Shown: positions 2,358 to 58,007 of the stretch, one piece after another
Layout: each line of letters opens with the position of its first letter
How positions within the stretch are numbered: the first letter of the stretch is position 1
From: an uncultured virus (IMG/VR IMGVR_UViG_3300027360_000001)
Lineage: Duplodnaviria; Heunggongvirae; Uroviricota; Caudoviricetes
IMG/VR virus record: IMGVR_UViG_3300027360_000001
DNA: 64,000 bases
Strand: one strand, 5' to 3'
Notes under the pieces: model-generated
What the model was told of the DNA's origin: nothing
What the model saw: only the letters and a program-made list of their open reading frames with translations
Databases searched by the model: none
Translations under genes and position numbers: made by a program

Positions 2358-3182
2358 TTATACGTAATAATATCGAAACTCGAACGAAATACTGTACGTC
2401 CCGCTCGCGCCCGTCATCGTAAAGCTATTCGCACCTGGCGCCAATGTCAGCACCTTGCGATTCGTCGCGCCGAACACGCTCGACCCGTTCTTCAGCGCCT
2501 TCGTACCGTCGAGCACTATCGTATTGCCCGCCACTGTTGTTCCCGTGTACTGCCACGTTTCGCCTGTCGTGTTGTTCACGATTTGGAGGTTCGTGCTTGC
2601 GCCGGTGAACGTAATTGTGAGCGGCATATACCGAGGGTCGACCGTTACGTCGCCCGCGTTAAATACGCTGAACGTCGACGTGCTGAACGTATAATCGTGC
2701 TGCTCGTCCTCCACCGATAGCCCCTGCCCGATCTGCCAAAGCTCGCTGTCGAAGTCGAATGTGCCGAGCGTAGTCGACACGGACTCGCGGTAAGCCCCCG
2801 CACTGGCGAATGTTACGCTAAACTCGCCATTTGTCGGCGTGTGCTGCGTGACCTCGAAGCCTTCCGCCTTTACGAGCATTCGCTTACCCGGCTCGCGACC
2901 GTCTACGAGGTAGAACGCCTGCTTGCTCGAAAGCATCGCGAATATGTCGTTAACTAGCAACGGAAAGTCGAGCGAATCTGCTGCCGAAAAGAAAAAAGAC
3001 GCCGAGAGCTTTCGCCCCTTCAGCGTCGTGCCTGCGTCGACCATGTGGTCGGCGACTTGTTCGTATAATAGTTCCGCCTCGGGCGTGCGCATCGTGAGGT
3101 CGGTCAGCGTAATGCCGAGCTCCTCGAAATCGTAGCGCACACCGTCCTGGCGGATGAGAGTTACGTTATGTGATTGCGCCAA
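2358..3182 (-). CDS. Distal tail protein (Dit, Sipho_tail family)
   Basis: Directly downstream of the tape measure gene; 274 aa; C-terminal LAPGANSF...FRYYYV typical of Dit. Confidence 0.8.
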   Translation of the reverse strand: MAQSHNVTLIRQDGVRYDFEELGITLTDLTMRTPEAELLYEQVADHMVDAGTTLKGRKLSASFFFSAADSLDFPLLVNDIFAMLSSKQAFYLVDGREPGKRMLVKAEGFEVTQHTPTNGEFSVTFASAGAYRESVSTTLGTFDFDSELWQIGQGLSVEDEQHDYTFSTSTFSVFNAGDVTVDPRYMPLTITFTGASTNLQIVNNTTGETWQYTGTTVAGNTIVLDGTKALKNGSSVFGATNRKVLTLAPGANSFTMTGASGTYSISFEFRYYYV

Positions 3183-3184
3183 TA

Positions 3185-6013
3185 TCAGCGCCCTCCTTTC
3201 ATGCCGAGCTGCACTTGCGCTAGGCGAGCGTTGTTCGCGCCAAATAAGTCAACCCACGGGTACACGCCCTCGGCGACCGTGCGTCCGTCCATAATAAGCT
3301 GCAGCACGGCGTTCCCTTGCGGTGCCTGCATCGATTGCTGCACGGATTGAGATGCGCCGAATGCAATCGAGTTTCCTGCGTCAATACGAGCGTTTTGCAC
3401 AGGCGGTAACGTAGCGGAGGCCATATTTCCTGCTGCGGCTTGAATCGACGAAACTTGCCCTTCTATCCCTTTCGCAAAACCTTGCCCGACGTATCCACCT
3501 ATTTCGACCATGACACGAGACGGCGAGTGGATGTTGAGGAGGTTTCTGATTTTATCAGTAACTGCATCGGCTGCGCTTTTTACCGCGTCTTTCACTGCTC
3601 CTACTGCACTACTTATTCCGTTCGCTAGCCCTTGGATGATGTTTACGCCGATTTCATACAAGTCAATACCCTGCAAGAAAGAAACGGCCTCATTCCACCC
3701 ATCAACAATCGCGGACTTAGCGTTTGACACTCCGTCGGACACTGCGCTCGTCATACTGCTGAACGCGCTTATACACCAACTAACGGCGTTATTAAGAGCA
3801 CTCGATATCGCTGACACAATCGCGTTCCACGTACTTACCGTAGTGGATTTGATGTTATTCCACGTACTCACGATCATACTTCCAAGATTCGTAATAGTTG
3901 CGATTGCGCTAGACGCTAGATTAGTCGCTGCCTGTATTACCCATGATTTAATAGCCTCCCATGCGGCAGACGTTGCGCTCGAAAGCGCGTTCCATGCGGA
4001 TACCACTCCGTTTACAAGTGCGTTAAAACTGTTAGTAACGGACGAAACAATAAACGTTACAATCGCCATTAGCCCCGCTTGCAGTGCGTTCGTAATCATA
4101 ATGCATTGATCCTTAAGCCCCGTCCATATAGCGATTAACGACGTCTTGACGCCCTCGAAGTTACCGACGAGAAGGTTAAGGAATACGCCAACAATCCCGA
4201 GCACGACGAGCTGAATGTTCTGCCAAGTTTGCGCGAGAAATTCTTGTATTGCCGCCCATATCGGAGTGATGAACGCAACTAGCATCGAGCAGGCCGTGGT
4301 AATTGCCGTAACAAGCCCCGTCCATATCGCGGTCGCCAGCGCAATAAGACCAGTCCATGCGGCTACTGCCGTAGTCACGATAGCGGTCCAAATTCCCGAG
4401 AAGAATGCGACAATGGATCCCCAAACGCTTTGCGCTGTCGCCACGATCGCGGTCCAAATCGCCATGATAGCCGCACCTAGCTCGATGAGTTTAGCAACCG
4501 TGTACGCTTTTACCGAATCCCAAACGCCAGACAGGTACGATACAATCGCACTCCACGTCGATATGGTCCACGCTTTCAATTCGTCCCAATACGCTATGAT
4601 TGCGATAACTGCTGCGACGACTACCGCCACAATCCCCGCTATGATAGCGCCCGTTGTTCCGATAATCCCGAACACAATGACCAGCGCCCCGATTGCTAAT
4701 GCGACAAAGCCAGCGACCGTTGCCAACACGAGAAGAGCGCCTACGATTAACGTAGTAACCGCGATAGCCTTTTGAATACCTGGGCTCAGGTTCGTGAACC
4801 AATCGGCTAACTTTTGAACGACTTCGGCAACCTTCGAGATTGTCGGGATTAGCGCCGTTCCGAACGCTGCGGCTGCGGTTTCCACTGATCCTTTCAATCG
4901 CTCCATCGCACCATTGAACGTATCCATTTTCGTAGCCGCTACGCTTGCCGCTGTCGTCTTGGACATTGCGTCGGCCATCTCGTTCATACCACTCGCGCCC
5001 TCTTTGTAGAGAATATTCGCAGCACGAATCGCATCGGACCCGAACATCGTGTATAGTGCTTGTTGGCGTTGCTCATCCGTTAGCCCTGCGAGACTCGTTT
5101 TGAGTATCTCCGAGATGTCGGCCATCGACTTGATGTGGCCCTGCGCGTCGTAAAATTGATTCGCGCCGTCTTTCGTTATGATTCCGAGGTCCGACATTTC
5201 TGTCCGAGCCTTCTTCGTCTGTGGCGTTAAGTTCATCAACATCGTTTTTAATGACGTACCAGCGTCCGAACCTTTTAGTCCGTTTTGGGCAAATAATGCC
5301 AACGCCGTCGACGTATCTTTAAACGTCAGCCCTACGCCAGAAGCTACCGCCGATACCATTGATAATCCGTATTGCATTTCTCGTACATCTGTCGCGGAAG
5401 CATTCGCAGCCCCCGCGAGGATATTAGCCGCGTCAGCAACCGATAGTCCATCCTTCTGAAACGCGTTCAACGCCGTAGACGCAATCTGCGCTGCCTCTCC
5501 GAGATCTAACTCGCCAGCTGTTGCGAGGTCAAGTGACGCCTGCAGTCCGCCACTCATAATCTGCTCAACGGATACACCCGCCTTTACGAGCTCCTCGAAT
5601 CCTTTCGCCGCTTCAGCCGATGAGTACTTCGTTTCCTTTCCGACATCTATTACGAGTTTCTTTACTTCATCCATCCGACTCGCTAATTCAGGTGCAACCG
5701 CCTTAATGTTCGCGAGGCCTTGTTCGAAAGTAGCCGCTTGTTTTACGGCATACCCAATACCGCCCCCAACCGCTGCCGCCATAGCCCCGAATGACATTGC
5801 GATGGCACCGCCCGCCTCACTCAACGAATGCCCGAGCCCTACCATGCGGTTTTGTAGTCCGTTCGCGCCGTTACCCATTTGACTGAATTGGTTCCCAACG
5901 CCCTGCATCGTCTGACCTAGCCCCGCCATTGCGGACCTCGTTTCGCTTACGGCGCTTTGTACGCCGGAGGCGTCTGCACTAATAGTTACGCGAATATCAC
6001 CGATATTTGACAA
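3185..6013 (-). CDS. Tail tape measure protein (TP901 family)
   Basis: 942 aa; TP901-type core (GLKGSDAGTSLKTML), hydrophobic segments, Trp-periodic repeats, IHSPSRV motif. Confidence 0.92.
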   Translation of the reverse strand: MSNIGDIRVTISADASGVQSAVSETRSAMAGLGQTMQGVGNQFSQMGNGANGLQNRMVGLGHSLSEAGGAIAMSFGAMAAAVGGGIGYAVKQAATFEQGLANIKAVAPELASRMDEVKKLVIDVGKETKYSSAEAAKGFEELVKAGVSVEQIMSGGLQASLDLATAGELDLGEAAQIASTALNAFQKDGLSVADAANILAGAANASATDVREMQYGLSMVSAVASGVGLTFKDTSTALALFAQNGLKGSDAGTSLKTMLMNLTPQTKKARTEMSDLGIITKDGANQFYDAQGHIKSMADISEILKTSLAGLTDEQRQQALYTMFGSDAIRAANILYKEGASGMNEMADAMSKTTAASVAATKMDTFNGAMERLKGSVETAAAAFGTALIPTISKVAEVVQKLADWFTNLSPGIQKAIAVTTLIVGALLVLATVAGFVALAIGALVIVFGIIGTTGAIIAGIVAVVVAAVIAIIAYWDELKAWTISTWSAIVSYLSGVWDSVKAYTVAKLIELGAAIMAIWTAIVATAQSVWGSIVAFFSGIWTAIVTTAVAAWTGLIALATAIWTGLVTAITTACSMLVAFITPIWAAIQEFLAQTWQNIQLVVLGIVGVFLNLLVGNFEGVKTSLIAIWTGLKDQCIMITNALQAGLMAIVTFIVSSVTNSFNALVNGVVSAWNALSSATSAAWEAIKSWVIQAATNLASSAIATITNLGSMIVSTWNNIKSTTVSTWNAIVSAISSALNNAVSWCISAFSSMTSAVSDGVSNAKSAIVDGWNEAVSFLQGIDLYEIGVNIIQGLANGISSAVGAVKDAVKSAADAVTDKIRNLLNIHSPSRVMVEIGGYVGQGFAKGIEGQVSSIQAAAGNMASATLPPVQNARIDAGNSIAFGASQSVQQSMQAPQGNAVLQLIMDGRTVAEGVYPWVDLFGANNARLAQVQLGMKGGR

Positions 6014-10944: not shown

Positions 10945-11850
10945 TTAAGAGGCGTCCTTTTTACTATCTAGGTATTCTTTTAATTGTTCTTCATTTGTGT
11001 CCCGAGATCCATACAACTTGTGAAAATTGATGTGGCATCTTTCGCAAAAAGTTATACCGTTATTGACGTCGGCTCGCAACTCTCTGTTGTCCGCATAGTT
11101 CCTAATATGATGGGCGTGTAACTTACCTGCGTGGTCACCGCACTTCTGACAAGTAAACTCATCTCTTAGAAGTACAAAGTTCCTCCATTTGTCAATACCT
11201 TCTGACCGCCTTCTCTTATCCTCTCTATCCTTTTGGGATAATTCAGGATTCCAACCGTGGTGCTTTTCGCCTCGATAATCTTCGATATGACAATGGCCAC
11301 ATTTACGTCCCTCTTGGAAATGGTCAAAACGGACTTTAATCTCATGTCCTCTCGGACAGACACATGCTAATTGCTTTTTACTTGAAGTATACTCTTCGAG
11401 AAGTGTGTAGCCTTGTTTTTCAACCTCACTTCTAACAAAAGCAGGGTCTAGTTTTACGGAAGCGACAGAGCGCTTGATTCCGCATTCTCTACACCTAACA
11501 CCTAATGTAAAATGGTTGAAAGTACTATAAAACTTGTTTCCACAACTACATTTAAAATTAACCTTGCCTCGGGAGTGTACGTAAGGGTCTAATAGCTCAC
11601 AACCAAATTTGGCTACGTACTCAATGACGTATGATTCGTCCAGGGTAACCCCTTTCCGCATTCTCTCGTACCCGCAAAGAAGACATTTCCCTCCGTTGTT
11701 CACGTTTTTAACCGTGGTGTGGGCTATTCTTCCGCAAGAACACCGGAATTTAAGTTTCGTGCGGTTATTGATGTAGACGTCATCAAGTAATTCTAATCCG
11801 TTTTCTGAAAAAATACGGCGCACTTCTTCGATTGTAAGTTTTTTACCCAT
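10945..11850 (-). CDS. HNH homing endonuclease with N-terminal zinc-ribbon repeats
   Basis: Repeated CxC...CxxC units; C-terminal RDEFTCQKC...LHAHHI...NGITFCERCH; AT-rich insert between scaffold and capsid genes. Confidence 0.85.
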   Translation of the reverse strand: MGKKLTIEEVRRIFSENGLELLDDVYINNRTKLKFRCSCGRIAHTTVKNVNNGGKCLLCGYERMRKGVTLDESYVIEYVAKFGCELLDPYVHSRGKVNFKCSCGNKFYSTFNHFTLGVRCRECGIKRSVASVKLDPAFVRSEVEKQGYTLLEEYTSSKKQLACVCPRGHEIKVRFDHFQEGRKCGHCHIEDYRGEKHHGWNPELSQKDREDKRRRSEGIDKWRNFVLLRDEFTCQKCGDHAGKLHAHHIRNYADNRELRADVNNGITFCERCHINFHKLYGSRDTNEEQLKEYLDSKKDAS

Positions 11851-16812: not shown

Positions 16813-17973
16813 TTAAGCGAGCGCCTTTTCTATTTCTGCAAGTTTTCTTACGTAGTAATTTTGTTTTGGTTTAGGTAGTCCTTCAACGTACTTATAAACG
16901 TTAACCAAGCGATACTTTCCATTCACTGTACGATCACACGATTTATCTCCTCTCAAAAATACGAGGGTAAGTGAATTGCAGTGCGGAAGGTATTTCCGTA
17001 CCGTCTCCGTGTGCCCTGACGCGTACTGCGAAAGTTTAACGTCAATCCATTCGTTATTTGGTAAAACGAAATCCGGGTCGTAGTGCTCATGTTCGTATTG
17101 GCTGTATTCGACTCCGAACTCCGTTAATATCTCACCGAATAATTCTTCGAGTGCGTACCCGCATTCTGAAGCGATATTCGAGTCGAGTTTTATATTTTCG
17201 TAATCAATGCCCGACGAATTTACCGCGTCTGCCCACGTAGGAAACAACGCCTTTGAAGCCGCTATTAGATGCGTCTTCTTACGTTTTATATACGTATAAT
17301 TCAACGGAACCCCTTCGTCGTAGAGGCGTTTAATTTCAAACGTAAGGCCCTCACGACTTTGTAAGTCCGGTATATAGCGCTTTGGCTTCTCGATAACTTC
17401 TTTAGGTTTATCTATCGTTATGTGGCAGATATTAAGGATTTGCTTAAGATCCTCAATTGTTAAAGATAGCTTAGTCATCGAATTACTGAATCCTCTAACG
17501 CGAGCTGAAAGTGCTGTATGCGTAGGCTCAGTCCCCGATAACAATTCCATAATTACTAACGAGAGAAACTCGTCTTTAGACTTACTGGAACCCGCGAGAT
17601 AGTACGGCTCATGCCCTGATGCTATTATCGCATCGTTCCACGTACCAAATCGACGTTTAGCTGCAGCGACTAAATCTCGATGTCCACTTCGTTTAAGATA
17701 ATCAGAGGATAGTGGGATTCCGCTGTTAGCGAGACGTTGTATCCCATCGATTACTCTCTCGTTAGTCCAATCAAGTTTACGCTCGCCTTTCTGTCGAGGA
17801 AGTCGGTTAATCCCGAAATGGTCGCACGCCTTACCCATCCCGTTAAACCTACGATCGATAGCGCGACATTCATTAGTGTATAACGCCCTGAATTGAGAAG
17901 ACGTAAGCCTTTCGGTTGACGCTTCGGTAAGTAATTCCCGTAGGTAATCGTCTGTATATTTACTTTTCGCCAT
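16813..17973 (-). CDS. Putative homing endonuclease (helical repeats plus PD-(D/E)XK-like nuclease)
   Basis: Repeated RRFGTWNDAI-type units; C-terminal PDFVLPNNEWIDVK. Confidence 0.65.
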   Translation of the reverse strand: MAKSKYTDDYLRELLTEASTERLTSSQFRALYTNECRAIDRRFNGMGKACDHFGINRLPRQKGERKLDWTNERVIDGIQRLANSGIPLSSDYLKRSGHRDLVAAAKRRFGTWNDAIIASGHEPYYLAGSSKSKDEFLSLVIMELLSGTEPTHTALSARVRGFSNSMTKLSLTIEDLKQILNICHITIDKPKEVIEKPKRYIPDLQSREGLTFEIKRLYDEGVPLNYTYIKRKKTHLIAASKALFPTWADAVNSSGIDYENIKLDSNIASECGYALEELFGEILTEFGVEYSQYEHEHYDPDFVLPNNEWIDVKLSQYASGHTETVRKYLPHCNSLTLVFLRGDKSCDRTVNGKYRLVNVYKYVEGLPKPKQNYYVRKLAEIEKALA

Positions 17974-20810: not shown

Positions 20811-21473
20811 TTAATTTCGCAATCTTTCTAATAGATTCTTTATTTTTCTTCTTATCCCTCGGATTTCCTCGTCAATTTCTTCAAGCCTTTCATTCAATTG
20901 CTGTTTCTCATCTTCATACTCTTGCCTCCATTCAAGGTAATCTTCGTCATCGTGTTTAAACTGTATATCATCCTCATGGCCTTTAGCGAGGCCTCCCGTA
21001 AAGTTGTTGTTATATATCTTATATTCGGGCTCTGCGTAATGCACCTCGAGCGCATCTAGTTCCTCTAATATATCGTGACGTAACGTTTTCAGCGTTCGCA
21101 ACTCATACTTTAAGTCCTCGATTAGCTCGACTTGGCAACGTAGCTTCCCTCGTGCTTTGAACGACTTAGCCTTGTTATAAATACCTCCGAGCGCACTTAT
21201 CGCGTACGTCTCGTATATCTCCCTTTCGTAAGGATCTGCGGCAAAGTATATCGTTACATAATCGATGGCATCACGGTAGGCGCTCGGAATATTGAAGTGA
21301 TTCGATAGGCGGCTTATTAAATTCTTCGACTGCCCAACGTATAAGCAACGGTTATCCTTATCGTATAACGAATAAACACCTCCACATTTAACCGAAAGTA
21401 GCTCGCGATAGTCGCCAAACTCCGCTTTCTTAAACGTTATCTTATCGTCCGGTAACGTTACTTGTATCGCCAC
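20811..21473 (-). CDS. GIY-YIG nuclease with acidic coiled-coil tail
   Basis: GGVYSLY...LYVGQSKNLISRLSNH...E...YN. Confidence 0.8.
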   Translation of the reverse strand: MAIQVTLPDDKITFKKAEFGDYRELLSVKCGGVYSLYDKDNRCLYVGQSKNLISRLSNHFNIPSAYRDAIDYVTIYFAADPYEREIYETYAISALGGIYNKAKSFKARGKLRCQVELIEDLKYELRTLKTLRHDILEELDALEVHYAEPEYKIYNNNFTGGLAKGHEDDIQFKHDDEDYLEWRQEYEDEKQQLNERLEEIDEEIRGIRRKIKNLLERLRN

Positions 21474-25830: not shown

Positions 25831-26127
25831 AGTATCAACTCGCTCCTTTCGGTTGCTTTATCGAGGCGTCGTGCGCCTTCTAACTATACATCGAAGGCTG
25901 AACGGCGTTTTTGACACGTATGCGGTAAAAAATTTCAGGCGAAAATAAAAAAGAACGCATCGATTGATACGTCCCGTTTCGAGATGATATTAATATTTAG
26001 TCAACACGGCGGAGCCGCACCGTCTTTCTTTGTCGCTATATCGCTGTCCTCGGCGTCGTCAGGTCCGAGAGCAGTACCGTAAGTACCCCGCTATACTACG
26101 TACGTATGTACACAGATCGGGTCGAGA

Positions 26128-30018: not shown

Positions 30019-30711
30019 TCACTTAACGATCTCCGACAGAGATACCGGAAAGTGTTCGCGGGATAACTGATCGACTGCCTTTGCGTACTCTTGGATCTCG
30101 CGCTGCGAATCGTGGGCTAGTCGTTGATTTAAGAAATTCGCTACGCCTGCGAGAGATGCCGTCCAGTACCAACGTACGTACATTCCGTAAGCTGGGAGGA
30201 ATAGGCGTGCTTGCTCTGCCGCCACCCCTGACGCCATTGCATCGTTATACAGTTGCTCTCCTTGTTCGATGTAATCTGAAAGTTCTTTCGTAAGAACAGA
30301 CCCGAGATAGCCTCCGACTATTTCTCCGCTGCCTTGCTTACTATTCTCCGGAGCTGATCGCCACTCATTCGCCTGTGGGATATAGAACGCGGGCTCCTCC
30401 GTAATATATCGCCGGCTGCTTTCGTTCCATGCGGCCATATTGTCCTGGTGCGAGCTGCCTACCACGTATTTCCACCATTGCCTAGCGATCATTAAAGGCG
30501 CATATACTTCGAACTGCATCATAGCATGTCGGAATGGGCTCGTGTGTCCCTCTCTCGCCAAGAATCGAATGAGCCTTTCGTCCTTATCGCTGATTTCCTC
30601 GGATGCCTTATCGTAGCTTACTCGTGCGCTATTTACGACAGTCAAGTCGCTTCCCATTACGTCCACTAATCTCACGTACCCCTTGTCGAGTACATTAATC
30701 ATCTCGTTCAT
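30019..30711 (-). CDS. thyX: FAD-dependent thymidylate synthase
   Basis: GHTSPFRH, ARQWWKY, NESSRRY, EQARLFLP, SQREI. Confidence 0.92.
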   Translation of the reverse strand: MNEMINVLDKGYVRLVDVMGSDLTVVNSARVSYDKASEEISDKDERLIRFLAREGHTSPFRHAMMQFEVYAPLMIARQWWKYVVGSSHQDNMAAWNESSRRYITEEPAFYIPQANEWRSAPENSKQGSGEIVGGYLGSVLTKELSDYIEQGEQLYNDAMASGVAAEQARLFLPAYGMYVRWYWTASLAGVANFLNQRLAHDSQREIQEYAKAVDQLSREHFPVSLSEIVK

Positions 30712-31216
30712 CCAACGATCCCCTTTCCATCGGAGCCTCATCGCCCCTTCTACCTATACATCGAATCCAGTATCGCCTTTTTGACAGTCTACCGTAAATT
30801 TATTGTAACTTTTTTGTAGCAACGCCGTTCTATACCACGCCCGTCGGACTCTTTGTCGGCTTAGTCTCGATCACGCCCGTGCTACCGCGCTTCGCTTGCT
30901 TGGGCGTTCCGGTTGCAGCCATTGATAAGACTTCGCTATCGCTACGCCTTACCAACAGCGTGCAATCCTCACACCACGTTTCCTCCGCCAAAACAAATCT
31001 AATATCCGCTCATCGCTTCCTCTTTTTATTTTCGTTTTGTCCCTCGCGCCCTGTCTTGTATAATTTCACGTCCCACAATCGAAGCATCTATCGTAAATAC
31101 CGAACGTTATTAGCGAAATTCACGCTTGACGTTCGTAACGATTTTAACTATGGGTAGGTTGCGGAAGAGAAACGGCTCGGCGACGCAGTAATCCCGTGAA
31201 TTTCGACACGAACAAT

Positions 31217-31650
31217 ATAAAAAGCACGCTCGAAGGCGTGCGATCATAAGCGTATCTAATTCACGAGACTACGATTCATGCGGTGCTGCCTATGGTTTAG
31301 GAGCGTCGAGTTTCCGTGTACCGTATGACCTTGTTTCGTATCAGACTTTCGTCCGCATCGGCTTGACATACGTTGTGTCGGACTTTTGCCACGTATGCGG
31401 TTCGCTGTTATACGAACCTGACCGGATGTCCCTGCGACCTTAATCGCACGACAACCCACCCCGCGCTGCTTCTTTCGGCGGTTACTCCCGCTCGGGCATC
31501 AACTGGCGATCGATTCCCATAACGTCCCGCCAGCGTAAACAAGGAAACGCTCAATAGGCGGCAACGGGCGAGTTCTTTAGCAATGGCCTCGCCAGACCTG
31601 TCGTAGTTTAGTCGATAACCCGCGTCGAGTAAGGCTATTGGACGCATGGG
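31217..31650 (-). ncRNA. Candidate structured non-coding RNA downstream of an attenuator
   Basis: No ORF with an RBS; dense run of hairpins; ends at the terminator GCACGC-CTTCGA-GCGTGC-T5 (31241-31219). Confidence 0.5.
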
Positions 31651-31651
31651 C

Positions 31652-31716
31652 AAAGAAAAAGCGCACAGTACTCCCGACGTGTCCAAACGAGAACCCTCAC
31701 CGAGAATACTACGCGC
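31652..31716 (-). terminator. Conditional terminator (attenuator)
   Basis: 16-bp stem (31716-31701 with 31676-31661) containing 4 G-U pairs valid only on the minus strand, followed by UUUUUCUUU. Confidence 0.7.
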
Positions 31717-31781
31717 CTTTTGGCGAAAATTTCTAACGTAAAAATGTTGCGTATATCATATAATAGCTATATAATATACGT

Positions 31782-31925
31782 ATCTGTAGCGTTGATAGCG
31801 CTACGCCGAGTTGGTAGCTCGGTTAATCAGTGAAAAAGTCTTTGGTTTATAGTCGATGTGGTAGTCGACTTGAATCTCTTTCTCGGTAAGGGTCTCGCTG
31901 TTGATTGCAGCGGGCCTTTTTCTTT
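31782..31925 (+). ncRNA. Antisense small RNA with four U-turn-like hairpins
   Basis: Promoter TTGCGT-17-TATAAT (31747-31775); loops TTGATAG, TTGGTAG, TGTGGTAG, TTGATTG; U-tract after the last hairpin. Confidence 0.7.
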
Positions 31926-32043
31926 GGTTATGTATTTAGTTGGTCAAACATTATGTATCGATATGTATTAATAGGTTTATTCGATTCTACCATTTCGTGT
32001 AAAATACGACAATATAAAAGTACAACGTTTTAATTCTACGTCC

Positions 32044-32072
32044 ATCATATACGATATCGAATATCGTGTCAA
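32044..32072 (-). promoter_or_regulatory. sigmaA promoter overlapped by a palindromic operator
   Basis: TTGACA-17-TATGAT; ATACGATATCGAAT at 32049-32062. Confidence 0.75.
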
Positions 32073-32187
32073 TAAAGAGTTTCAATTAGCTATCGAATTA
32101 TTAGCAATGCCTAACGATTTCATAGCCATGCCCTCTAAACGAAAAAGGGCGCCGCCCATATCGTGAAGGGCCGCGCTCGGTCATCGC

Positions 32188-32667
32188 TCAGTATCCGCTT
32201 GCTAGTCGATCGTAATTCGTTTGCATCTTCGAAAAATAGCTCGATTCCATGTCGGCCTCGCTCATGCCGATGTACTCCCCGATAGACAGCAGCGCTCGGA
32301 AGGCGAATGCGTACTCGCGAATGTTCGAAAAGTCCGCGCGGTACAACTCGGAGAATAACTCGTTGAGCGACACGTCTAGGTATCCTAACGATTTCACCTC
32401 GGCGATGTGATCGCTATGCCCATATTTGTTACCCAGCGAGAGCATGAAGTGCAGTACGTCAGCCCATTCGTCGAACTGGCGGGCCTTGTCATTGCGCTTG
32501 TTCAGCTTCCAATACTTAAAAAATCCGATTTCCTGCGCGAGCTCGCCTAATTCTACGTGAAGGGCTGTCGTAACATCAGCCGTGAGGTTGCGGTCCTGCA
32601 GTGAATGAACTTCGATTACCTTGCGATCAAGACGCTCCTGCGCGTCGAAATATTTTACTAGATTCAT
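32188..32667 (-). CDS. Dimeric dUTPase (dUTPase_2 family)
   Basis: VELGELAQE, FKYWK, EWADVLHF, KMQTNYDR. Confidence 0.88.
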   Translation of the reverse strand: MNLVKYFDAQERLDRKVIEVHSLQDRNLTADVTTALHVELGELAQEIGFFKYWKLNKRNDKARQFDEWADVLHFMLSLGNKYGHSDHIAEVKSLGYLDVSLNELFSELYRADFSNIREYAFAFRALLSIGEYIGMSEADMESSYFSKMQTNYDRLASGY

Positions 32668-34016: not shown

Positions 34017-34700
34017 TTATAGGTATCTAAACGTCCACCCTTTATGTTGACGCGTTCTTCCTTGTAAGCAGCTTGTAATACCTTGTTTAATCAGTCCGTG
34101 GTTACGTGCGAATTCTCTTATTCCTAAAGCTACGAGTCTTTCTCCCGAAGGACTAATTGCCTCGAACTCCTTCTTTAGATGTGTTCTATCTACTATCGCA
34201 GAGTTTTTCGTTTTGGTTAGAAATGTGCAAGTATTAAGTGAGTAGATTTTCGTCTCCGCTTTCATTTGCTTCATGTCTTTATCGAGGTTGAGCACGCCAG
34301 CCTCAAAAAGAGACTGGTCATACCCATCGATTAGTGGGATATCTTTGACGAACTGTTCGAAAGAGCACCATTCCTCCGCTACCGTAACGCCTTTACCTCC
34401 GTAATTTATATACGAGTTATCAGTAACGTCATAGCAACGGCGTAGCATCTTGTGCCATATGTTATAACTCCTTCTATTAGTGACAACATCGGCGTTCCCT
34501 ATATAACCGACACCTAGTATGTCTCGAGCGAATCGGTCCTTTATTTTCCCTCGTTTCATTTGGACCTTTTCGACTACCGTTTCGTAGCCAGTATCTAAAA
34601 ACCGGATGCGCCATTTCTGATTATTGGACTTGCTCTTTCCTTCGGTCGCTAAGACAACATACTTTTGACCGGATTTGTTTTCCAGAATTTCTCCAATCAC
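34017..34700 (-). CDS. Free-standing homing-type endonuclease (NUMOD1-like C-terminus)
   Basis: YNIWHKMLRRCY...YGGKGV...LDKD; C-terminal FARNHGL...HKGWTF; AT-rich. Confidence 0.7.
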   Translation of the reverse strand: MIGEILENKSGQKYVVLATEGKSKSNNQKWRIRFLDTGYETVVEKVQMKRGKIKDRFARDILGVGYIGNADVVTNRRSYNIWHKMLRRCYDVTDNSYINYGGKGVTVAEEWCSFEQFVKDIPLIDGYDQSLFEAGVLNLDKDMKQMKAETKIYSLNTCTFLTKTKNSAIVDRTHLKKEFEAISPSGERLVALGIREFARNHGLIKQGITSCLQGRTRQHKGWTFRYL

Positions 34701-38589: not shown

Positions 38590-38949
38590 TTAGAAAGGCG
38601 CTCCTTCCTCTTTATTATCGTTTAAAACGAGAATCTCTTCGTCGACCGTAGTTAATAGAGGGAGGTTCTCCGCAAGTACTTGGTGCAGTACGTTCGAAGT
38701 CCTATTGACGAGAGATTCATCTTGTTCCTCTGGGTTATACCCCGCTTCAAACATTATTGCGTGAAGCACCTCGTGAACGAGGGTCTGCTCTTTTCTTTCT
38801 GTTGTTAAATCAGCGTCTATTTGAATCACACAATCGCTGAAATCAACTTGACCAAATAATCCGTATTTTCGCTGCAACCCTTCTACTTCTTGGACAATAT
38901 ATAGAGCTCCTCCCACTTTGATTTCCTTCTCGTCGAATATTTTATTCAT
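38590..38949 (-). CDS. ImmA/IrrE-like metallopeptidase
   Basis: TLVHEVLHAI (HExxH). Confidence 0.65.
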   Translation of the reverse strand: MNKIFDEKEIKVGGALYIVQEVEGLQRKYGLFGQVDFSDCVIQIDADLTTERKEQTLVHEVLHAIMFEAGYNPEEQDESLVNRTSNVLHQVLAENLPLLTTVDEEILVLNDNKEEGAPF

Positions 38950-39673
38950 TAATAATCCCCTCCATTTTCTCGAATGTATTTAATCTAGCTTTATCCCCAT
39001 GAAGTTCTATCGCGTATACATTGTACATCTCGGCCGCTACGCGCTCTGTCCCGAAATAACCTATAAATATAGATTTTCCTTGCTTTTTAATCTGTGCTAC
39101 ATATTTACTTCGTCTTTTATCGTAAGTAACTCCTATATACTTTGAGTGTACCCCTCTCACTTTATCAACTGAAAATACCTCGGTCGGTACGTAATCTTTC
39201 GGTATATCGTTTATGACAGCATACTCCCCGAAGTACTCTTCCGCCTTTTTATTATAGTGATACGCAGCATCGATCTCGTTAACAAAACACCCTAAATGCT
39301 CAGTTTTACCGTTAATCTTTATCGAGCTTTGGTATTTTCCGACGCTGATATTAAAGTGAACACCCTTGTATTTACTTGTTGTACTTGAGGACCTTTTACC
39401 TCTATTCCAAGAGTTTTCTAAATGGTTACATATCCTCAAATTCGCTCTTCTATTATCGAGGCCGTTTCTATTTATATGGTCAACGATTTCCCCATCTTTG
39501 GCTCCTGTGATAACTCGATGCATTCTCACGCTCGTTCCAGTCCCGTTAACAATGTCGACTGCAGCCGCGTAGTCAGGGTTTTGAAACCGCCAATTCCATT
39601 GTATAAGGTAATCATAGTCCTCATCATCGACTATCGCTACTTTCCCTTTCGTCAGAGGTATTTCTTTAGCCAT
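38942..39673 (-). CDS. HNH endonuclease with two AP2 domains
   Basis: VDHINRNGLDNRRANLR; twice SKYxGV...LGxF...AA..YN. Confidence 0.9.
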   Translation of the reverse strand: MAKEIPLTKGKVAIVDDEDYDYLIQWNWRFQNPDYAAAVDIVNGTGTSVRMHRVITGAKDGEIVDHINRNGLDNRRANLRICNHLENSWNRGKRSSSTTSKYKGVHFNISVGKYQSSIKINGKTEHLGCFVNEIDAAYHYNKKAEEYFGEYAVINDIPKDYVPTEVFSVDKVRGVHSKYIGVTYDKRRSKYVAQIKKQGKSIFIGYFGTERVAAEMYNVYAIELHGDKARLNTFEKMEGIINE

Positions 39674-53524: not shown

Positions 53525-54133
53525 CTACCGCACGTATTTCGTCATGAACTCGTGGAAGTCAGCGACCTGCAGCACGCGAACACCTCGGCTGACATCGCCT
53601 AACTCATACGGTTTGGGAGCGACTAACAACACGTATGGAAACACAGGCTTATCCTTGCGTTGCCATTCGAGAGCCTTCCACGAGCCACCTACGTAATATT
53701 CCTCGTAGTCCTCGATTTTCCTCCGCACTTGCTTTGCCGTCCAGTTGCCGCGCACTTGCACCTCGACGAAGAACGGAGTGCCCCGCCATATCATGAACGC
53801 GTCGGGTATCACGCCGTCAGCCACCTTACGCTCGATCTCGAATACATCGGGCTCTATATACGAACACACATCGAGGTAAAAGTCGGCGATGGCCGCATGG
53901 TGCGGGAGCTTCGCGCTGTCTCGCTTCATCTTCGACCCCGAAGGGTAATATCGATATGGCCGCGCCTTCGTATCGACATCCACGCGCCCCTGCAGTTTCA
54001 GCCGATTCATGACCGTATTGCACCCCGATATAGGACTCCGATGCTGACGGAAGAACATGCGCACCAGCTGGTCGCGGTCCAGCACACGAAACTTTTCGAT
54101 TGCACCAATTATCTCCTTGTCACGTTGTTTCAC
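53525..54133 (-). CDS. Replication-relaxation family protein
   Basis: N-terminal wHTH (RDKEII..IEKFRVL.RDQL); HHAAIADF, IPDAFM, FFVEVQ. Confidence 0.8.
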   Translation of the reverse strand: MKQRDKEIIGAIEKFRVLDRDQLVRMFFRQHRSPISGCNTVMNRLKLQGRVDVDTKARPYRYYPSGSKMKRDSAKLPHHAAIADFYLDVCSYIEPDVFEIERKVADGVIPDAFMIWRGTPFFVEVQVRGNWTAKQVRRKIEDYEEYYVGGSWKALEWQRKDKPVFPYVLLVAPKPYELGDVSRGVRVLQVADFHEFMTKYVR

Positions 54134-55341
54134 TTTCGTTTCCCTCCGTTTTTGTCGAGTGTATCGAGCAGTCCTAATTCAATCGGTTGCTGTTCGGGCT
54201 CCATTTCGACTACATTAGTCGGTACAATATCGATAGGCTTCGCGGTCTTAAACGGTTCGAGCAACTCCTCCGCTGGGTCCTTCTCGAGTTCGGGCGCTTG
54301 GATCTGCGTATACTTGTTGCCGACGCTCGCCCACATGAGGCCGCCTTGCGTTATTTTCGAGGCGTCTACATCCGTCGAACTCAAGATAATATTCGAGTCG
54401 ATTTTCGAATTTACACGAAACGCCATGCGAATATTTAGGTTCGTTTTAATATCGCCATCCACTGCGTCAGCATCTGGCCTTTGAAGGCTGAGCACCATAA
54501 ACACGCCAAGCGCACGGCCGAGCAGCGCAATGTCCGTTATAATGTTTTGTAGTTTTTTATCCTTACGTAGAACGCCGAATTCATCGATGAACAACACGAT
54601 ATACGGCACGCGGCACTCTTTCGGCAACTGGTCGATGTTAAATACTTCGTGTGCCTCGAGTAAGTCAGATCGTCGCTCACATTCCGCCCATAACGTCTTC
54701 ACCATTACGACAAGCTCGTTGCGCCGTGTTACATAACCTTTTACGCATTCACAGCGACGGAATAAATGAAATTCAGACCGCTTCATATCTGCAAGGTATA
54801 ATTCGATATTCTTCTTCGAGGTGATTAACGTCGTAATTACGGAACGGAGCTGCGTCGACTTTCCGCTACCGCTCGATCCCCCGATAAGCACATGCGGCAG
54901 ATTGTCGCCCATCATATCGACGACTACATAACGACATTTCTCGTCTTTCCCGAGCAGAATCGGTACTTTGCATTTCCGAATAATCGGCGATATTTCCTCG
55001 ACATTGTACGCGTATTGAGGGAATCGCACAGGATCCGTATGGTATATCGTCAAAACGAAATTCTTGGCGTTGGACACTTCGCTGAGCTCGAATTTTTTCC
55101 CGTATAATTGCGATACTATATACGAATGCTTCTCAACATTCGCTGGATTTACGCCCGTTGGTAGCGAAAAAACGTAGACGTCTCGCTCCTCGCTATAATC
55201 GGTGTTCACTACCACGGGAAACTGCTCGCCCTTGCTGCCGCGAAACACGACTTCCTTCGTGAGATTCATTAAACGGAAGGCCTCTCGTAGCTTACGGAGT
55301 TTCTTCGCGTTCTCGCGGCGCTGTTTTAATGCTTCGAACAT
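54130..55341 (-). CDS. FtsK/SpoIIIE-family ATPase
   Basis: PHVLIGGSSGSGKS, DMKRSE, FIDEF, GRALG, QRPD. Confidence 0.92.
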   Translation of the reverse strand: MFEALKQRRENAKKLRKLREAFRLMNLTKEVVFRGSKGEQFPVVVNTDYSEERDVYVFSLPTGVNPANVEKHSYIVSQLYGKKFELSEVSNAKNFVLTIYHTDPVRFPQYAYNVEEISPIIRKCKVPILLGKDEKCRYVVVDMMGDNLPHVLIGGSSGSGKSTQLRSVITTLITSKKNIELYLADMKRSEFHLFRRCECVKGYVTRRNELVVMVKTLWAECERRSDLLEAHEVFNIDQLPKECRVPYIVLFIDEFGVLRKDKKLQNIITDIALLGRALGVFMVLSLQRPDADAVDGDIKTNLNIRMAFRVNSKIDSNIILSSTDVDASKITQGGLMWASVGNKYTQIQAPELEKDPAEELLEPFKTAKPIDIVPTNVVEMEPEQQPIELGLLDTLDKNGGKRK

Positions 55342-56859: not shown

Positions 56860-57447
56860 TCACACTGTCGCAACGGGCGACGTCTGCCGCTCGCCTTGTG
56901 CCCGGAGTGCCTCGATGTACATATCGGCGACATCACTGCCCGTTACGAGCTCAACGTTGAGGCCTTGCGCATACTTGCGAGCTGCATCGGTATAGCCTGC
57001 GGTCGATAAGACGTAGCCTCCGATCGCACCGTGTTTCACCATGTTCGAATGTACTTTCGCGATGGCATCGAAAGGTAAATCGTCCTTATAACATTTAACC
57101 TGGATAAAGTAAACGCCGTCTTCGCGCTTGTGTACCACGTCAATGCCATAATCACCGCTCCCTTGCGTTACCTCCGCCTTGCCTCCGTACTTGCGCTCGA
57201 ATAGCCAAGCGATAAATGCTTCGAACGCCCACGGATCCTCGCGAATAAACTCATCGCTATATTTCTCGCCTTCCTGGGCGGATTTGAAGCGAAGGTATAG
57301 GCCCATCGCCAGTGTACGCTTGAACGTATCGTTTGCATTGCGGAGGAATACGAGACTGTCTAGCGCCGAGATATGGCGACGCTCCGAGCGCATATATAGG
57401 AACGCGAATGCCGACGCGAGCACCGCGAGAATAGTCGATAATACCAT
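56860..57447 (-). CDS. Mrr-like restriction endonuclease-domain protein with N-terminal TM helix
   Basis: AFEAFIA...GSGDYGIDVV...IQVKCY...G.VLSTAGYT. Confidence 0.85.
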   Translation of the reverse strand: MVLSTILAVLASAFAFLYMRSERRHISALDSLVFLRNANDTFKRTLAMGLYLRFKSAQEGEKYSDEFIREDPWAFEAFIAWLFERKYGGKAEVTQGSGDYGIDVVHKREDGVYFIQVKCYKDDLPFDAIAKVHSNMVKHGAIGGYVLSTAGYTDAARKYAQGLNVELVTGSDVADMYIEALRAQGERQTSPVATV

Positions 57448-57572
57448 CGAGAACACCCTTTCGTCGTTGTATGTAAATAGTGTCGACAAATATTCGTGAT
57501 TGTATACCGAAAGATATTCAAAAATTCGTGAAATGGTAATATAATGAAATTATGACGAAAGGGGAGATTCGA

Positions 57573-58007
57573 ATGGATAAGAAGAAAAAGCCGATATATA
57601 AGCGTTGGTGGGCGTGGGTCATAGCGTTTATTGTTGTCGTAGCGATTGCGGGCGGAAATAGCGGCGGTACGAAAACAGAGCAAGCGAGTACGGAAGTCAA
57701 AGGCGATGCAGCAGCGGCGACAAAGCAATCCGAAGCACCGAAGCCGAGCAAGCCGGCGAAGATTACGCTAGCCGATTACGAAACTATCACGACGGGCGAT
57801 TCGTTAACTGGTGAAGGCGGAATGACTTACGAAGAGGTTGTCGCAAAGTTCGGCGAGCCTTCGAGCAAAACCGAGTCGCAGTCGGGCGACATGAAAATGA
57901 TAATCGCGTCGTGGATGAAGAATATAAACGGAGGCTTTGGCGCAAACTTTAATATCACGTTTATTAACGGGAAAGCCTCCGCTAAGTCACAAACGAGTAT
58001 GGAATAA
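57573..58007 (+). CDS. Membrane-anchored extracytoplasmic protein (DUF3862-like)
   Basis: KKKKPIYKRWWAW followed by a TM helix; GMTYEEVVAKFGEP; own terminator at 58016-58050. Confidence 0.7.
   Translation: MDKKKKPIYKRWWAWVIAFIVVVAIAGGNSGGTKTEQASTEVKGDAAAATKQSEAPKPSKPAKITLADYETITTGDSLTGEGGMTYEEVVAKFGEPSSKTESQSGDMKMIIASWMKNINGGFGANFNITFINGKASAKSQTSME

What the first reader, a model, noticed from the sequence alone, without database searches (positions are those of the whole stretch)
31217..32072. Antisense-RNA-controlled attenuator gating a long structured ncRNA: candidate Rep-less, RNA-based replicon
Seen: a minus-strand promoter TTGACA-17-TATGAT (32072-32044) fires into about 820 nt with no RBS-bearing ORF. 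A convergent plus-strand promoter (31747-31775) would make a roughly 140-nt RNA with four hairpins whose loops are TTGATAG, TTGGTAG, TGTGGTAG and TTGATTG. On the sense RNA, a 16-bp terminator (31716-31661 plus U-tract) competes with an antiterminator: 31897-31880 pairs with 31706-31688, and 31897-31880 is covered by the antisense RNA. G-U pairs make both structures valid only on the minus strand. Read-through gives a further 430 nt packed with hairpins (GGCGAG..CTCGCC, AGCGT..ACGCT, CTGGCG..CGCCAG, TGCGA..TCGCA, GGTTCG..CGAACC, GGAC-GAAA-GTCT) and a G-rich tract (GCGGGGTGGG), ending in a second terminator at 31241-31219. Known: antisense-driven attenuation controls copy number in pT181 and pIP501, where the gated product is rep mRNA. 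GAGTTGGTAGCTC is, from memory, a stem-loop of ColE1 RNA I. Inference: here the gated product is itself an RNA, possibly a replication pre-primer maintaining a plasmid-like prophage, a hybrid of the two control logics.
Basis: partly seen in the sequence, partly recalled or inferred. Interest (0 to 1): 0.9.

Follow-up and report, generated by a model that had tools for sequence, protein, structure and literature searches.

The report
Phage copy of plasmid RNA control module
A gene-free stretch of a Bacillus-type phage holds a small antisense RNA, a transcription stop it controls and a large folded RNA, all matching a non-coding maintenance region of Bacillus cereus-group plasmids that may be a replication origin working without its own initiator protein.

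Summary
These are the minus-strand promoter, the convergent four-hairpin RNA, the long strand-specific terminator T1 with its competing antiterminator, and the second terminator T2.

The 430 nt behind T1 fold no better than shuffles. They are still a real structured RNA. Two covariance models built only from four plasmid-type sequences find the phage copy (71 bits, E 5e-18; 30 bits, E 3e-5), with compensatory changes in most helices and a covarying long-range pairing. Rfam has no family for it.

Relatives lie in unannotated non-coding regions of about 100 B. cereus-group plasmids, in at least 37 IMG/VR contigs and in Bacillus phage C30-2. The three relatives I examined for it have the same layout of antisense RNA, terminator and RNA. 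The module sits beside partition or stability genes, and I saw no recognisable Rep gene.

The attenuator reading is well supported in silico. The replicon reading rests on circumstantial evidence only. A link to the pHT1030/ori1030 replicon comes from my memory and was not tested. The phage lacks the plasmids' conserved downstream block and has no partition genes. No RNA data exist.

This is a new variant of a known kind, of moderately high interest.

The parts
32044..32072 (-). Sense promoter, TTGACA-17-TATGAT. The transcript would start near 32037.
   Evidence: matches 11 of 12 positions.
31717..32037 (-). AT-rich leader of the sense RNA (35% G+C). Its middle is fully complementary to the antisense RNA.
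   Evidence: Sequence read. G+C. Whole-leader fold has z -4.67.
31747..31775 (+). Antisense promoter, TTGCGT-17-TATAAT. It lies within a 13-nt inverted repeat (31750-31762 / 31768-31780).
   Evidence: Read. The inverted repeat is I10. The site fell below the scanner's threshold.
31782..31925 (+). Antisense RNA of about 140 nt with four hairpins: 31786-31804, 31806-31822, 31851-31870 and 31890-31917. Their loops are UUGAUAG, UUGGUAG, UGUGGUAG and UUGAUUG. The last hairpin plus its U run is the RNA's own terminator.
   Evidence: -52.6 kcal/mol, z -4.05. Terminator found. TTGGTAG recurs on the antisense strand of relatives.
31880..31897 (-). Antiterminator arm A. It pairs with 31688-31706 and is covered by the antisense RNA.
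   Evidence: repeat I8. This pairing forms in the minimum-energy fold of the leader.
31652..31716 (-). Attenuator T1: a long hairpin (31716-31661) followed by a U run. Arm B of the antiterminator (31688-31706) lies inside it.
   Evidence: minus strand -32.8 kcal/mol, z -4.54. Plus strand -14.6, z -1.15.
31225..31651 (-). Body of the long RNA (54% G+C), made only after read-through of T1.
   Evidence: Folding energy alone is not above chance.
31450..31579 (-). Conserved domain 1. A closing helix uses the G-rich tract 31455-31462. Inside are helix m (CCGCC/GGCGG), hairpin a, and hairpins c and e.
   Evidence: Model R1, built from plasmid-type sequences only, scores 71.2 bits, E 5e-18. 96.3% of cells are paired and 6 pairs change on both sides.
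31310..31463 (-). Conserved domain 2. It holds hairpin g, long-range helix i, stem j around GGCA..GACACA, GNRA hairpin k (GGAC-GAAA-GUCU) and the AUACGG box.
   Evidence: Model R2 scores 30.2 bits, E 3e-5. 95.2% of cells are paired, 19 of 30 pairs change on both sides, and 0 of 500 shuffles reach this.
31537..31544 (-). 5' strand of the long-range pairing LR1 (CCUUGUUU), in the loop of hairpin a. It pairs with 31329-31336.
31329..31336 (-). 3' strand of LR1 (AAACAAGG).
31217..31241 (-). Terminator T2, the end of the long RNA (about 820 nt from the promoter).
   Evidence: 6-bp stem with 5 G-C pairs, followed by a T run.

Best explanation
**Layout.** Bases 31217-32072 form one minus-strand transcription unit:
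- a promoter at 32072-32044;
- an AT-rich leader of about 320 nt;
- the intrinsic terminator T1 (31716-31661 plus a U run);
- a G+C-rich RNA of about 430 nt;
- the terminator T2.

A convergent four-hairpin RNA of about 140 nt (31782-31925, plus strand) is complementary to the middle of the leader.

**Control (inferred from folds).** In the free leader, 31897-31880 pairs with the 5' half of T1, so transcription reads through. When the antisense RNA pairs with the leader, probably starting at its UUGRUAG loops, that segment is held. T1 then forms and the transcript ends at about 385 nt. The antisense RNA therefore sets how much long RNA is made.

**The long RNA (shown by homology and covariation).** It belongs to a conserved, pseudoknotted RNA family. 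The family is otherwise found in the non-coding maintenance region of B. cereus-group plasmids and phage-plasmids.

**Function (inferred, not shown).** In those elements the module is most likely the replicon. The RNA would act as a pre-primer or origin RNA that host enzymes use without a plasmid Rep, and the antisense RNA would control copy number. In this phage the module most likely gives copy-controlled, host-driven replication, such as carriage as a plasmid.

**My odds.**
- Antisense-controlled attenuator gating a conserved structured RNA: about 0.8.
- The family is a replication determinant: about 0.45.
- The module serves replication in this phage: about 0.3.

The confidence of 0.5 given below is for the combined statement, not for the replication claim alone. 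On replication the step odds above govern.
For: **Anatomy.** Searches confirm every part. The antiterminated form is the minimum-energy fold of the leader (z -4.67). T1 is strand-specific.

**Homology.**
- blastn against 72,556 plasmids gave one hit, the 7,380-bp B. cereus plasmid NZ_CP091449.1. The hit is 84 nt at 76% identity in an unannotated stretch.
- nhmmer extended the match to about 260 nt and added pKK1.
- A metagenome scan gave 14 loci. Two are further plasmid-type copies, one is identical to the phage, and 11 are chance matches in coding DNA.

**Structure.**
- Models R1 and R2 were built from the four plasmid-type sequences alone. They find the phage at 71.2 bits (E 5e-18) and 30.2 bits (E 3e-5).
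- R2 also finds 3 type B plasmids, phage C30-2, and 37 of the 80 IMG/VR loci fetched.
- Domain 1: 96.3% of cells are paired against 92.5% in shuffles and 29-48% when the partner is slid. Six pairs change on both sides.
- Domain 2: 95.2% paired against 71.8% in shuffles. 19 of 30 pairs change on both sides, and 0 of 500 shuffles reach this.
- The long-range pairing LR1 keeps its place while both strands change: CCUUGUUU/AAACAAGG in the phage; CCUCGUUA/UAACGAGG and CCUUGUUA/UAACAAGG in type A plasmids; CCCAUUC/GAAUGGG, CCUAUUC/GAAUAGG and CCUGUUC/GAACAGG in type B.
- GNRA and UACG tetraloops and many G-U pairs point to RNA rather than single-stranded DNA.

**Same control layout in relatives.**
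- L084 has a promoter matching 10 of 12, a four-hairpin antisense RNA (z -4.64) and a long terminator hairpin.
- L140 shows the same layout.
- TTGGTAG lies on the antisense strand in 29 of 54 distinct type B leaders, and on the sense strand in 1 of 54.

**Context that fits a replicon.**
- About 103 plasmids share the non-coding region, and 86 of them are non-mobilizable.
- L084 has no ORF above 207 aa and no Rep family match.
- A conserved 165-167-aa gene with faint similarity to PrgO lies divergent from the module in 6 loci.
- A ParA operon lies divergent from the module in both IMG/VR contigs I examined.
- Phage C30-2 carries ParA near the module.
- Neighbouring genes otherwise differ between carriers, so the RNA module is the shared unit.
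Against: - The RNA body folds no better than shuffles (z +0.36).
- There is no expression evidence.
- Only five type A sequences exist, and four of them are close relatives, so most changes in domain 1 trace to one phage-plasmid split.
- The alignments used for pair counts were fitted to the model, and I drew the structure from these same sequences.
- Type C plasmids were not found by either model.
- One proposed helix, n, is broken in the phage. Several of my helices exclude each other.
- LR1's stem length alone is not significant: 32.5% of shuffled windows reach 8 bp.
- The plasmids' conserved downstream block (GTCAAG box, CTACCACTAAC repeats) may be the actual origin. It has no match in the phage.
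- The phage has no partition gene and no integrase. It does have its own PolA, primase, DnaB- and DnaC-like proteins and a Replic_Relax initiator, so it may not need this module.
- Type C plasmids L087 and L092 carry a 346- or 334-aa gene just upstream. L087's shows faint RepA_N similarity (E 9e-4, below cut-off).
- No call shows that the plasmid module replicates anything. The link to pHT1030/ori1030 is from memory.
Confidence: 0.5

Rival explanations
1. The long RNA is a functional structured RNA with a role other than replication, still gated by the antisense attenuator. It could be a regulatory or scaffold RNA, a ribozyme, or an incompatibility or exclusion determinant aimed at resident plasmids of the same family.
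For: - The fold is complex, with pseudoknot-like LR1, GNRA and UNCG loops and multi-helix junctions. That is more elaborate than a simple primer needs.
- The phage lacks the plasmids' downstream conserved block and has no partition genes.
- The phage has its own replication genes.
- pKK1 holds the RNA core without the leader.
Against: - Every full-length relative I examined sits in a plasmid or phage-plasmid maintenance region beside partition genes.
- Antisense RNA plus attenuator is the classic design for copy-number control.
- L084 offers no other replicon candidate.
Confidence: 0.25
2. The module is a captured plasmid fragment, carried between dUTPase and ThyX after recombination with a plasmid, and does nothing for the phage now.
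For: - The closest known phage, Mgbh1, has three small genes at this position instead.
- None of the 77 non-identical ThyX loci from IMG/VR holds the sequence.
- The downstream plasmid block is missing.
- The genome is rich in homing endonucleases, which fits frequent DNA exchange.
Against: - Promoter, antisense gene, both terminators and the antiterminator are all intact.
- The phage copy has 54% G+C against 39-46% for the plasmid copies, yet keeps the pairs through compensatory changes. That implies a long period under selection in a lineage richer in G+C.
- The sequence is identical in contigs from several metagenomes.
Confidence: 0.15
3. The unit is a long regulatory leader for thyX and the genes behind it. 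The attenuator would tune expression of nucleotide-metabolism genes.
For: - The unit has the same orientation as thyX, and no other strong promoter was scanned between T2 and thyX.
- The upstream operon ends in a terminator before the promoter (read).
Against: - T2 ends the RNA 480 nt before thyX.
- The homologous RNAs in plasmids are followed by no conserved gene, and never by thyX.
- No Rfam riboswitch matches.
Confidence: 0.07
4. The stretch codes for a protein, either the 92-aa ORF 31408-31686 or a small type I toxin controlled by the antisense RNA.
For: - The TTG-start ORF of 92 aa has a GAGG 7 nt upstream (read).
- A convergent antisense RNA is typical of type I toxin-antitoxin pairs.
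Against: - The ORF has no Pfam or PHROG match.
- Over the conserved core, the phage ORF and the L084 ORF (6682-6882) use different frames (read).
- Changes come in paired, stem-keeping form rather than at third codon positions.
- The only ORFs inside the leader are 21-23 aa, not hydrophobic and without a ribosome-binding site (read).
Confidence: 0.03

Closest known systems
pT181 / pIP501 (inc18) antisense-driven transcription attenuation of rep mRNA
   Same: A countertranscript is complementary to the leader. An intrinsic terminator lies downstream of the target. An upstream segment, covered by the antisense RNA, competes with the terminator's 5' arm.
   Different: The gated product is a conserved structured RNA, not a rep mRNA. 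The antisense RNA has four hairpins. The mechanism of those plasmids is from my knowledge and was not re-read here.
ColE1 RNA I / RNA II
   Same: It has a non-coding gated product that could act as a pre-primer, needs no plasmid initiator, and uses a multi-hairpin antisense RNA. The 13-mer GAGTTGGTAGCTC (loop UUGGUAG) is identical to a hairpin inside ColE1's RNAI. A conserved G-rich tract lies in the long RNA.
   Different: Rfam's RNAI model does not match the window. ColE1 has no attenuator. No origin, RNase H site or Rom was identified here. The host group is different. The shared hairpin is best read as convergence on a U-turn loop, and that reading is an inference.
pHT1030 / ori1030 replicon of B. 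thuringiensis (Lereclus and Arantes 1992, Mol Microbiol 6:35)
   Same: From memory, this is a 15-kb B. thuringiensis plasmid whose minimal replicon encodes no Rep and lies beside a stability locus, spbA. That fits the plasmid relatives found here, which include 15-kb plasmids of serovar thuringiensis strains.
   Different: This was not tested, because no pHT1030 sequence was on hand. I saw only the paper's title in a reference list and the use of ori1030 as a vector origin. The phage shares only the RNA core and the control layout. It lacks the downstream block and the stability gene.
Large 'ornate' bacterial and phage RNAs (ROOL, GOLLD, raiA, OLE)
   Same: These are also large, conserved, non-coding RNAs with complex folds, and some are found in phages.
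   Different: No Rfam family matches at gathering score anywhere in the window, or at E up to 10 in 30600-32300. None matches in plasmid L084 either. The genomic context also differs.

Membership tests
Antisense-controlled transcription attenuators (pT181 / pIP501 type) | A countertranscript complementary to the leader of the controlled RNA | tested here: met
   The plus-strand four-hairpin RNA with its own promoter and terminator lies wholly inside the leader. This is in silico only.
Antisense-controlled transcription attenuators (pT181 / pIP501 type) | An intrinsic terminator whose 5' arm can instead pair with an upstream segment that the antisense RNA covers | tested here: met
   (I8).
Antisense-controlled transcription attenuators (pT181 / pIP501 type) | The gated product is rep mRNA | tested here: not met
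   There is no conserved ORF. The frames differ between the phage and L084, and there are no family matches.
ColE1-type RNA I / RNA II replicon | The antisense RNA matches Rfam RNAI (RF00106) | tested here: not met
   There is no match in the window at gathering score, or at E up to 10. The same model finds ColE1 at 73.8 bits.
ColE1-type RNA I / RNA II replicon | The pre-primer forms a hybrid at the origin, is cut by RNase H and is extended by DNA polymerase I | not testable with these tools
   This needs mapping of RNA-DNA junctions.
ColE1-type RNA I / RNA II replicon | No element-encoded initiator protein is needed | tested here: inconclusive
   Plasmid L084 has no ORF above 207 aa and no Rep family match. 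Small unknown proteins remain possible, and the phage has an initiator-like gene elsewhere.
pHT1030 / ori1030 replicon | Sequence homology to the published minimal replicon | not testable with these tools
   The sequence is not held in any collection I could reach. The paper is not in the library.
pHT1030 / ori1030 replicon | An adjacent stability gene | tested here: not met
   The 165-167-aa gene that flanks the module in 6 plasmid-type loci has no tblastn match in the window.
The plasmid RNA family defined here (types A and B) | A full-length match to covariance models of domains 1 and 2, with the pairs kept | tested here: met
   R1 scores 71.2 bits and R2 30.2 bits, both over the full model length.
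The plasmid RNA family defined here (types A and B) | The conserved downstream block (GTCAAG box and CTACCACTAAC repeats) | tested here: not met
   nhmmer finds nothing in the phage at 30742-31330 or with the whole-region profile.
Type I toxin-antitoxin | A small hydrophobic toxin ORF with a ribosome-binding site on the sense RNA | tested here: not met
   Six-frame reading of the stretch.

The most novel reading that the evidence does not exclude
Bacillota have their own counterpart of the ColE1 principle. This would be a family of Rep-independent replicons whose initiator is a large pseudoknotted RNA, with its dose set by antisense-driven transcription attenuation rather than by blocking primer maturation. 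The family would be shared by small plasmids, megaplasmids and phage-plasmids of the B. cereus group. It may also be the unexplained mechanism behind the widely used ori1030 vector origin. A PolA-encoding siphophage from a lineage richer in G+C would have taken up the RNA and its control circuit, without the partition genes, to persist as a copy-controlled episome or to start its own replication from an R-loop.
Probability: 0.3. Interest if true: 0.85.

Novelty: new variant of a known kind. Interest (0 to 1): 0.68.

Why it matters
Antisense-controlled attenuation is known only as a gate on rep mRNAs. RNA-primed, Rep-free replication is textbook only for ColE1-type plasmids of enterobacteria. 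A module that joins the two in Gram-positive plasmids and phages would be a third design for copy control.

The RNA is not in Rfam. It occurs in about 100 sequenced plasmids and in dozens of predicted phage-plasmids. It has enough covariation to model and a clear bench test. If it is the ori1030 replicon, the work would explain how a vector origin used for 30 years functions. It would also show where its copy-number mutants should map.

For phage biology, it would be a case of a phage with a full replication set also carrying a plasmid-type RNA replicon.

Tried and rejected
- **Rfam.** No match at gathering score anywhere in the window. Only chance-level rows at E up to 10 in 30600-32300. Nothing relevant in plasmid L084.
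- **blastn of the gap against 50,697 phage records.** No match. The type A core against the same set: no match.
- **ThyX synteny.** 80 IMG/VR loci were fetched. Only the 3 loci identical to the window hold the gap sequence. None of the other 77 has dUTPase next to thyX.
- **Own genome and relatives.** Not held or not drawn.
- **Type A pattern scans.** Viral contigs gave 3 loci, all identical to the window. Genome contigs gave 0. Metagenomes gave 14, of which 3 are real.
- **Type C 20-mer in viral contigs.** 0 matches.
- **Profile of the whole plasmid region against the phage.** Nothing.
- **Profile of the downstream block against the phage.** Nothing.
- **Sequencing runs.** No RNA holder is listed. 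The laid contigs show no variants or joints in the module.
- **Folds of the DNA between T2 and thyX.** z -1.37 and +0.94, so nothing notable.
- **Group I or II intron, retron, IS-linked guide RNA, single-strand origin of rolling-circle plasmids.** I considered these by eye. I dropped them for lack of any Rfam match, lack of the partner gene, or because the tetraloops and G-U pairs point to RNA.
- **Literature.**
  - 'pHT1030' gave 3 papers, all reference-list mentions only.
  - 'ori1030' gave 5 papers that use it as a vector origin.
  - Searches, and passages read, gave no account of the mechanism.
  - The supplement of PMC5678133 could not be read.
Full report
**Setting.** The window is almost a whole genome of a siphophage of Bacillales.
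- All large genes lie on the minus strand. They comprise structural genes, a sigma factor, and a nucleotide-metabolism block (NrdI, NrdE, NrdF, PhoH, nuclease, dUTPase/MazG-like, ThyX, cytosine methylase, dNMP kinase). There is also a replication block with family A DNA polymerase, primase, DnaB- and DnaC-like proteins, a Replic_Relax-type initiator and an FtsK-like ATPase.
- The closest named phage is Bacillus phage Mgbh1, with 54% amino-acid identity in the DNA polymerase.
- The finding lies in a 1,446-nt gap without a credible gene, 30742-32187, between dUTPase (32188-32667) and ThyX (30019-30741). Mgbh1 has three small genes at that place.
- None of the 19 ORFs of 300 aa or more is an integrase. 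I found no ParA.

The details are in the observation check.
- The promoter at 32072-32044 matches 11 of 12 positions.
- The plus-strand RNA 31776-31925 folds into four hairpins (z -4.05) and ends in a terminator.
- T1 folds at -32.8 kcal/mol (z -4.54) on the minus strand, but only -14.6 (z -1.15) on the plus strand.
- The inverted repeat that would form the antiterminator is present (I8).
- The minimum-energy fold of the whole leader is the antiterminated form (z -4.67).
- T2 lies at 31241-31224.
- The one claim that fails a chance test is that the 430 nt behind T1 are unusually structured by energy: z +0.36.

**Not a known RNA, and no phage relatives.**
- Rfam gives nothing.
- The gap has no blastn match among 50,697 phage records.
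- Of 80 IMG/VR loci that encode a ThyX relative, only the three identical to the window hold it.

**The lead came from plasmids.**
- One of 72,556 plasmids matched: the 7,380-bp B. cereus plasmid NZ_CP091449.1. The match is 84 nt at 76% identity in an unannotated stretch. Conserved blocks are separated by stems whose two sides both differ.
- nhmmer extended the match to about 260 nt and added the megaplasmid pKK1.
- The plasmid's 1.5-kb non-coding region is shared in part by 103 plasmids, 100 of them Bacillus and 86 non-mobilizable. It is nearly always unannotated.
- The flanks are conserved across these plasmids. The central 420-620 nt come in at least three sequence types, which I call A, B and C.
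- The phage belongs to type A with L084, pKK1 and two metagenome contigs. The metagenome scan returned 14 loci, of which 11 are chance matches in coding DNA and one is the phage itself.

**Structure.**
- I built two covariance models from the four plasmid-type type A sequences only, with helices I had read from per-sequence folds.
- R1 (domain 1) finds the phage at 31450-31579 with 71.2 bits, E 5e-18, over its full length. It finds no type B or C plasmid.
- R2 (domain 2) finds the phage at 31310-31463 with 30.2 bits, E 3e-5. It also finds type B plasmids L086, L090 and L088.
- On the model-fitted alignments, domain 1 has 96.3% of cells paired, against 92.5% in shuffles and 29-48% when the partner is slid. 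Six pairs change on both sides.
- Domain 2 has 95.2% paired against 71.8% in shuffles. 19 of 30 pairs change on both sides, and 0 of 500 shuffles reach this.
- These alignments lean towards the structure, and I drew the structure from the same sequences. The slid controls are therefore generous to it.
- Domain 1 rests on five sequences, four of them close.
- Examples that can be read directly:
  - helix m is CCGCC/GGCGG in the phage and CCUAC/GUAGG in plasmids;
  - stem j is GCAUACGU/ACGUAUGU against GUAUUCAU/AUGAAUAU;
  - the GNRA hairpin is GGAC-GAAA-GUCU against GACA-GGAA-UGUC and GGC-GAAA-AGCC.
- A long-range pairing (LR1) joins the loop of hairpin a to the segment just before the conserved AUACGG box. 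It is kept in all 59 type B sequences and all five type A sequences, with coordinated changes. Its length alone is not significant, since 32.5% of shuffled windows reach 8 bp.
- One helix I proposed (n) is broken in the phage, and some helices compete for the same bases. The full fold is not settled.
- Phage identity to the plasmid copies is 64-72% in domain 1 and 57-66% in domain 2. The phage core has 55% G+C and the plasmid copies 35-46%.

**Not coding.**
- The 92-aa ORF has no family match.
- Over the conserved core it is read in a different frame from the 66-aa ORF of L084.
- No downstream protein gene is shared among the plasmids.

**The control layout is shared.**
- L084 has a plus-strand promoter (10 of 12), a four-hairpin antisense RNA of about 145 nt ending in a terminator (z -4.64), and then a long hairpin with a U run just before the RNA.
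- An IMG/VR type B contig, L140, shows the same order.
- The loop word TTGGTAG lies on the antisense strand in 29 of 54 distinct type B leaders, against 1 of 54 on the sense strand. It also occurs once in each of four type C plasmids. It is absent from L084.
- The same heptamer sits in the 13-mer that the phage shares exactly with a hairpin of ColE1 RNA I. Rfam's RNAI model does not match the window, so I read this as convergence on a fast-pairing loop. That reading is an inference.

**Context of the relatives.**
- L084 has no ORF above 207 aa and no Rep family match.
- A 165-167-aa gene with a faint PrgO-like match lies divergent from the module in six loci of all three types.
- Two type C plasmids instead have unrelated 346- and 334-aa genes upstream. 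One shows a sub-threshold RepA_N match.
- Bacillus phage C30-2 is an unverified partial record. It has a type B module at its start (R2 24.5 bits), clear phage structural genes and a ParA gene near its end.
- A type B pattern found 116 stretches in IMG/VR, and 80 loci were fetched. Of these, 37 match R2 at E up to 0.01 and 55 have both type B anchors. The rest look like chance matches.
- In both contigs I examined, a ParA operon lies divergent from the module.
- A non-coding unit with copy-control-type regulation, beside partition genes, in elements without a recognisable initiator, is what a replicon looks like. No call tests replication.

**What the phage lacks.**
- The plasmids share a block after the RNA with a GTCAAG box, two CTACCACTAAC repeats and more. 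It has no match in the phage.
- The phage has neither the stability gene nor ParA.
- It may therefore carry the RNA and its control without the site where DNA synthesis would start. Alternatively, the corresponding site has diverged beyond recognition.

**Known work.**
- From memory, the B. thuringiensis plasmid pHT1030, source of the pHT vectors and of 'ori1030', was described in 1992 as a new type of Gram-positive replicon. Its minimal region encodes no protein and lies beside a stability locus, spbA.
- I could see only the title in a reference list, a sentence on the vectors and vector tables. The paper itself and any sequence were out of reach.
- The plasmid relatives include 15-kb plasmids of serovar thuringiensis strains, which fits. 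The identity is untested.
- I found no account of an RNA mechanism for that origin in the searches.

**Verdict.**
- The gated RNA is real and belongs to an undescribed RNA family of plasmids and phage-plasmids.
- The replicon role is the leading hypothesis for the family, at about 0.45.
- It is less sure for this phage, at about 0.3.

Noticed in passing
L111 (PQ069203.1, Bacillus phage C30-2) 316-1100 and 31798-32901: This unverified, partial 34-kb phage record carries a type B copy of the RNA module at its start. A ParA gene followed by a 101-aa gene lies near its end. If the record is circular, these are neighbours, which would make it a phage-plasmid with this module as its likely replicon.
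   Followed up: partly
IMG/VR loci L112-L191, e.g. L140 3998-4700 and L170 3246-4135: At least 37 predicted viral contigs, mostly 45-80 kb and from isolate genomes, hold a near-identical type B module. In the two I examined, a ParA operon (276 aa plus 128 aa) lies divergent from it.
   Followed up: partly
window 30746-30765 and 25876-25895: A 20-nt stretch just upstream of the thyX start codon recurs 4.9 kb away at 95% identity. It may be a shared ribosome-binding or regulatory element.
   Followed up: no
window 30882-30937: One metagenome contig (run X16) matches this stretch between T2 and thyX with 10 differences in 56 nt, and its flanks continue in a similar but diverged form. A relative may therefore conserve this part of the gap.
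   Followed up: no
window 53525-55341: A Replic_Relax-family initiator-like gene sits directly after an FtsK/SpoIIIE-like ATPase gene. That pair is more usual in plasmids and conjugative elements than in phages.
   Followed up: no
window 10945-11850, 16813-17973, 20811-21473, 34017-34700, 38942-39673: Five homing-endonuclease-type genes (HNH, HNH-repeat, GIY-YIG) are scattered through the genome.
   Followed up: no
window 56860-58007: An Mrr-type restriction endonuclease gene lies next to the only clear plus-strand gene, a DUF3862 lipoprotein with matches to superinfection-exclusion families. Such accessory genes are usual in temperate phages.
   Followed up: no
L088 (NZ_CP126527.1) 2568-2930: A GIY-YIG nuclease gene is inserted in the conserved non-coding block downstream of the RNA in one small plasmid.
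   Followed up: no
NZ_CP053983.1 (1,629-bp record): A 1.6-kb record filed as a plasmid, without annotation, matches only the conserved downstream block of the plasmid region. It may be an assembly fragment of the 7.2-kb plasmid of a related strain.
   Followed up: no
L085 (pKK1, NZ_AP014865.1) 2989-3422: The megaplasmid holds the type A RNA core beside an IS232 element but without the leader and antisense gene. It looks like a remnant.
   Followed up: partly
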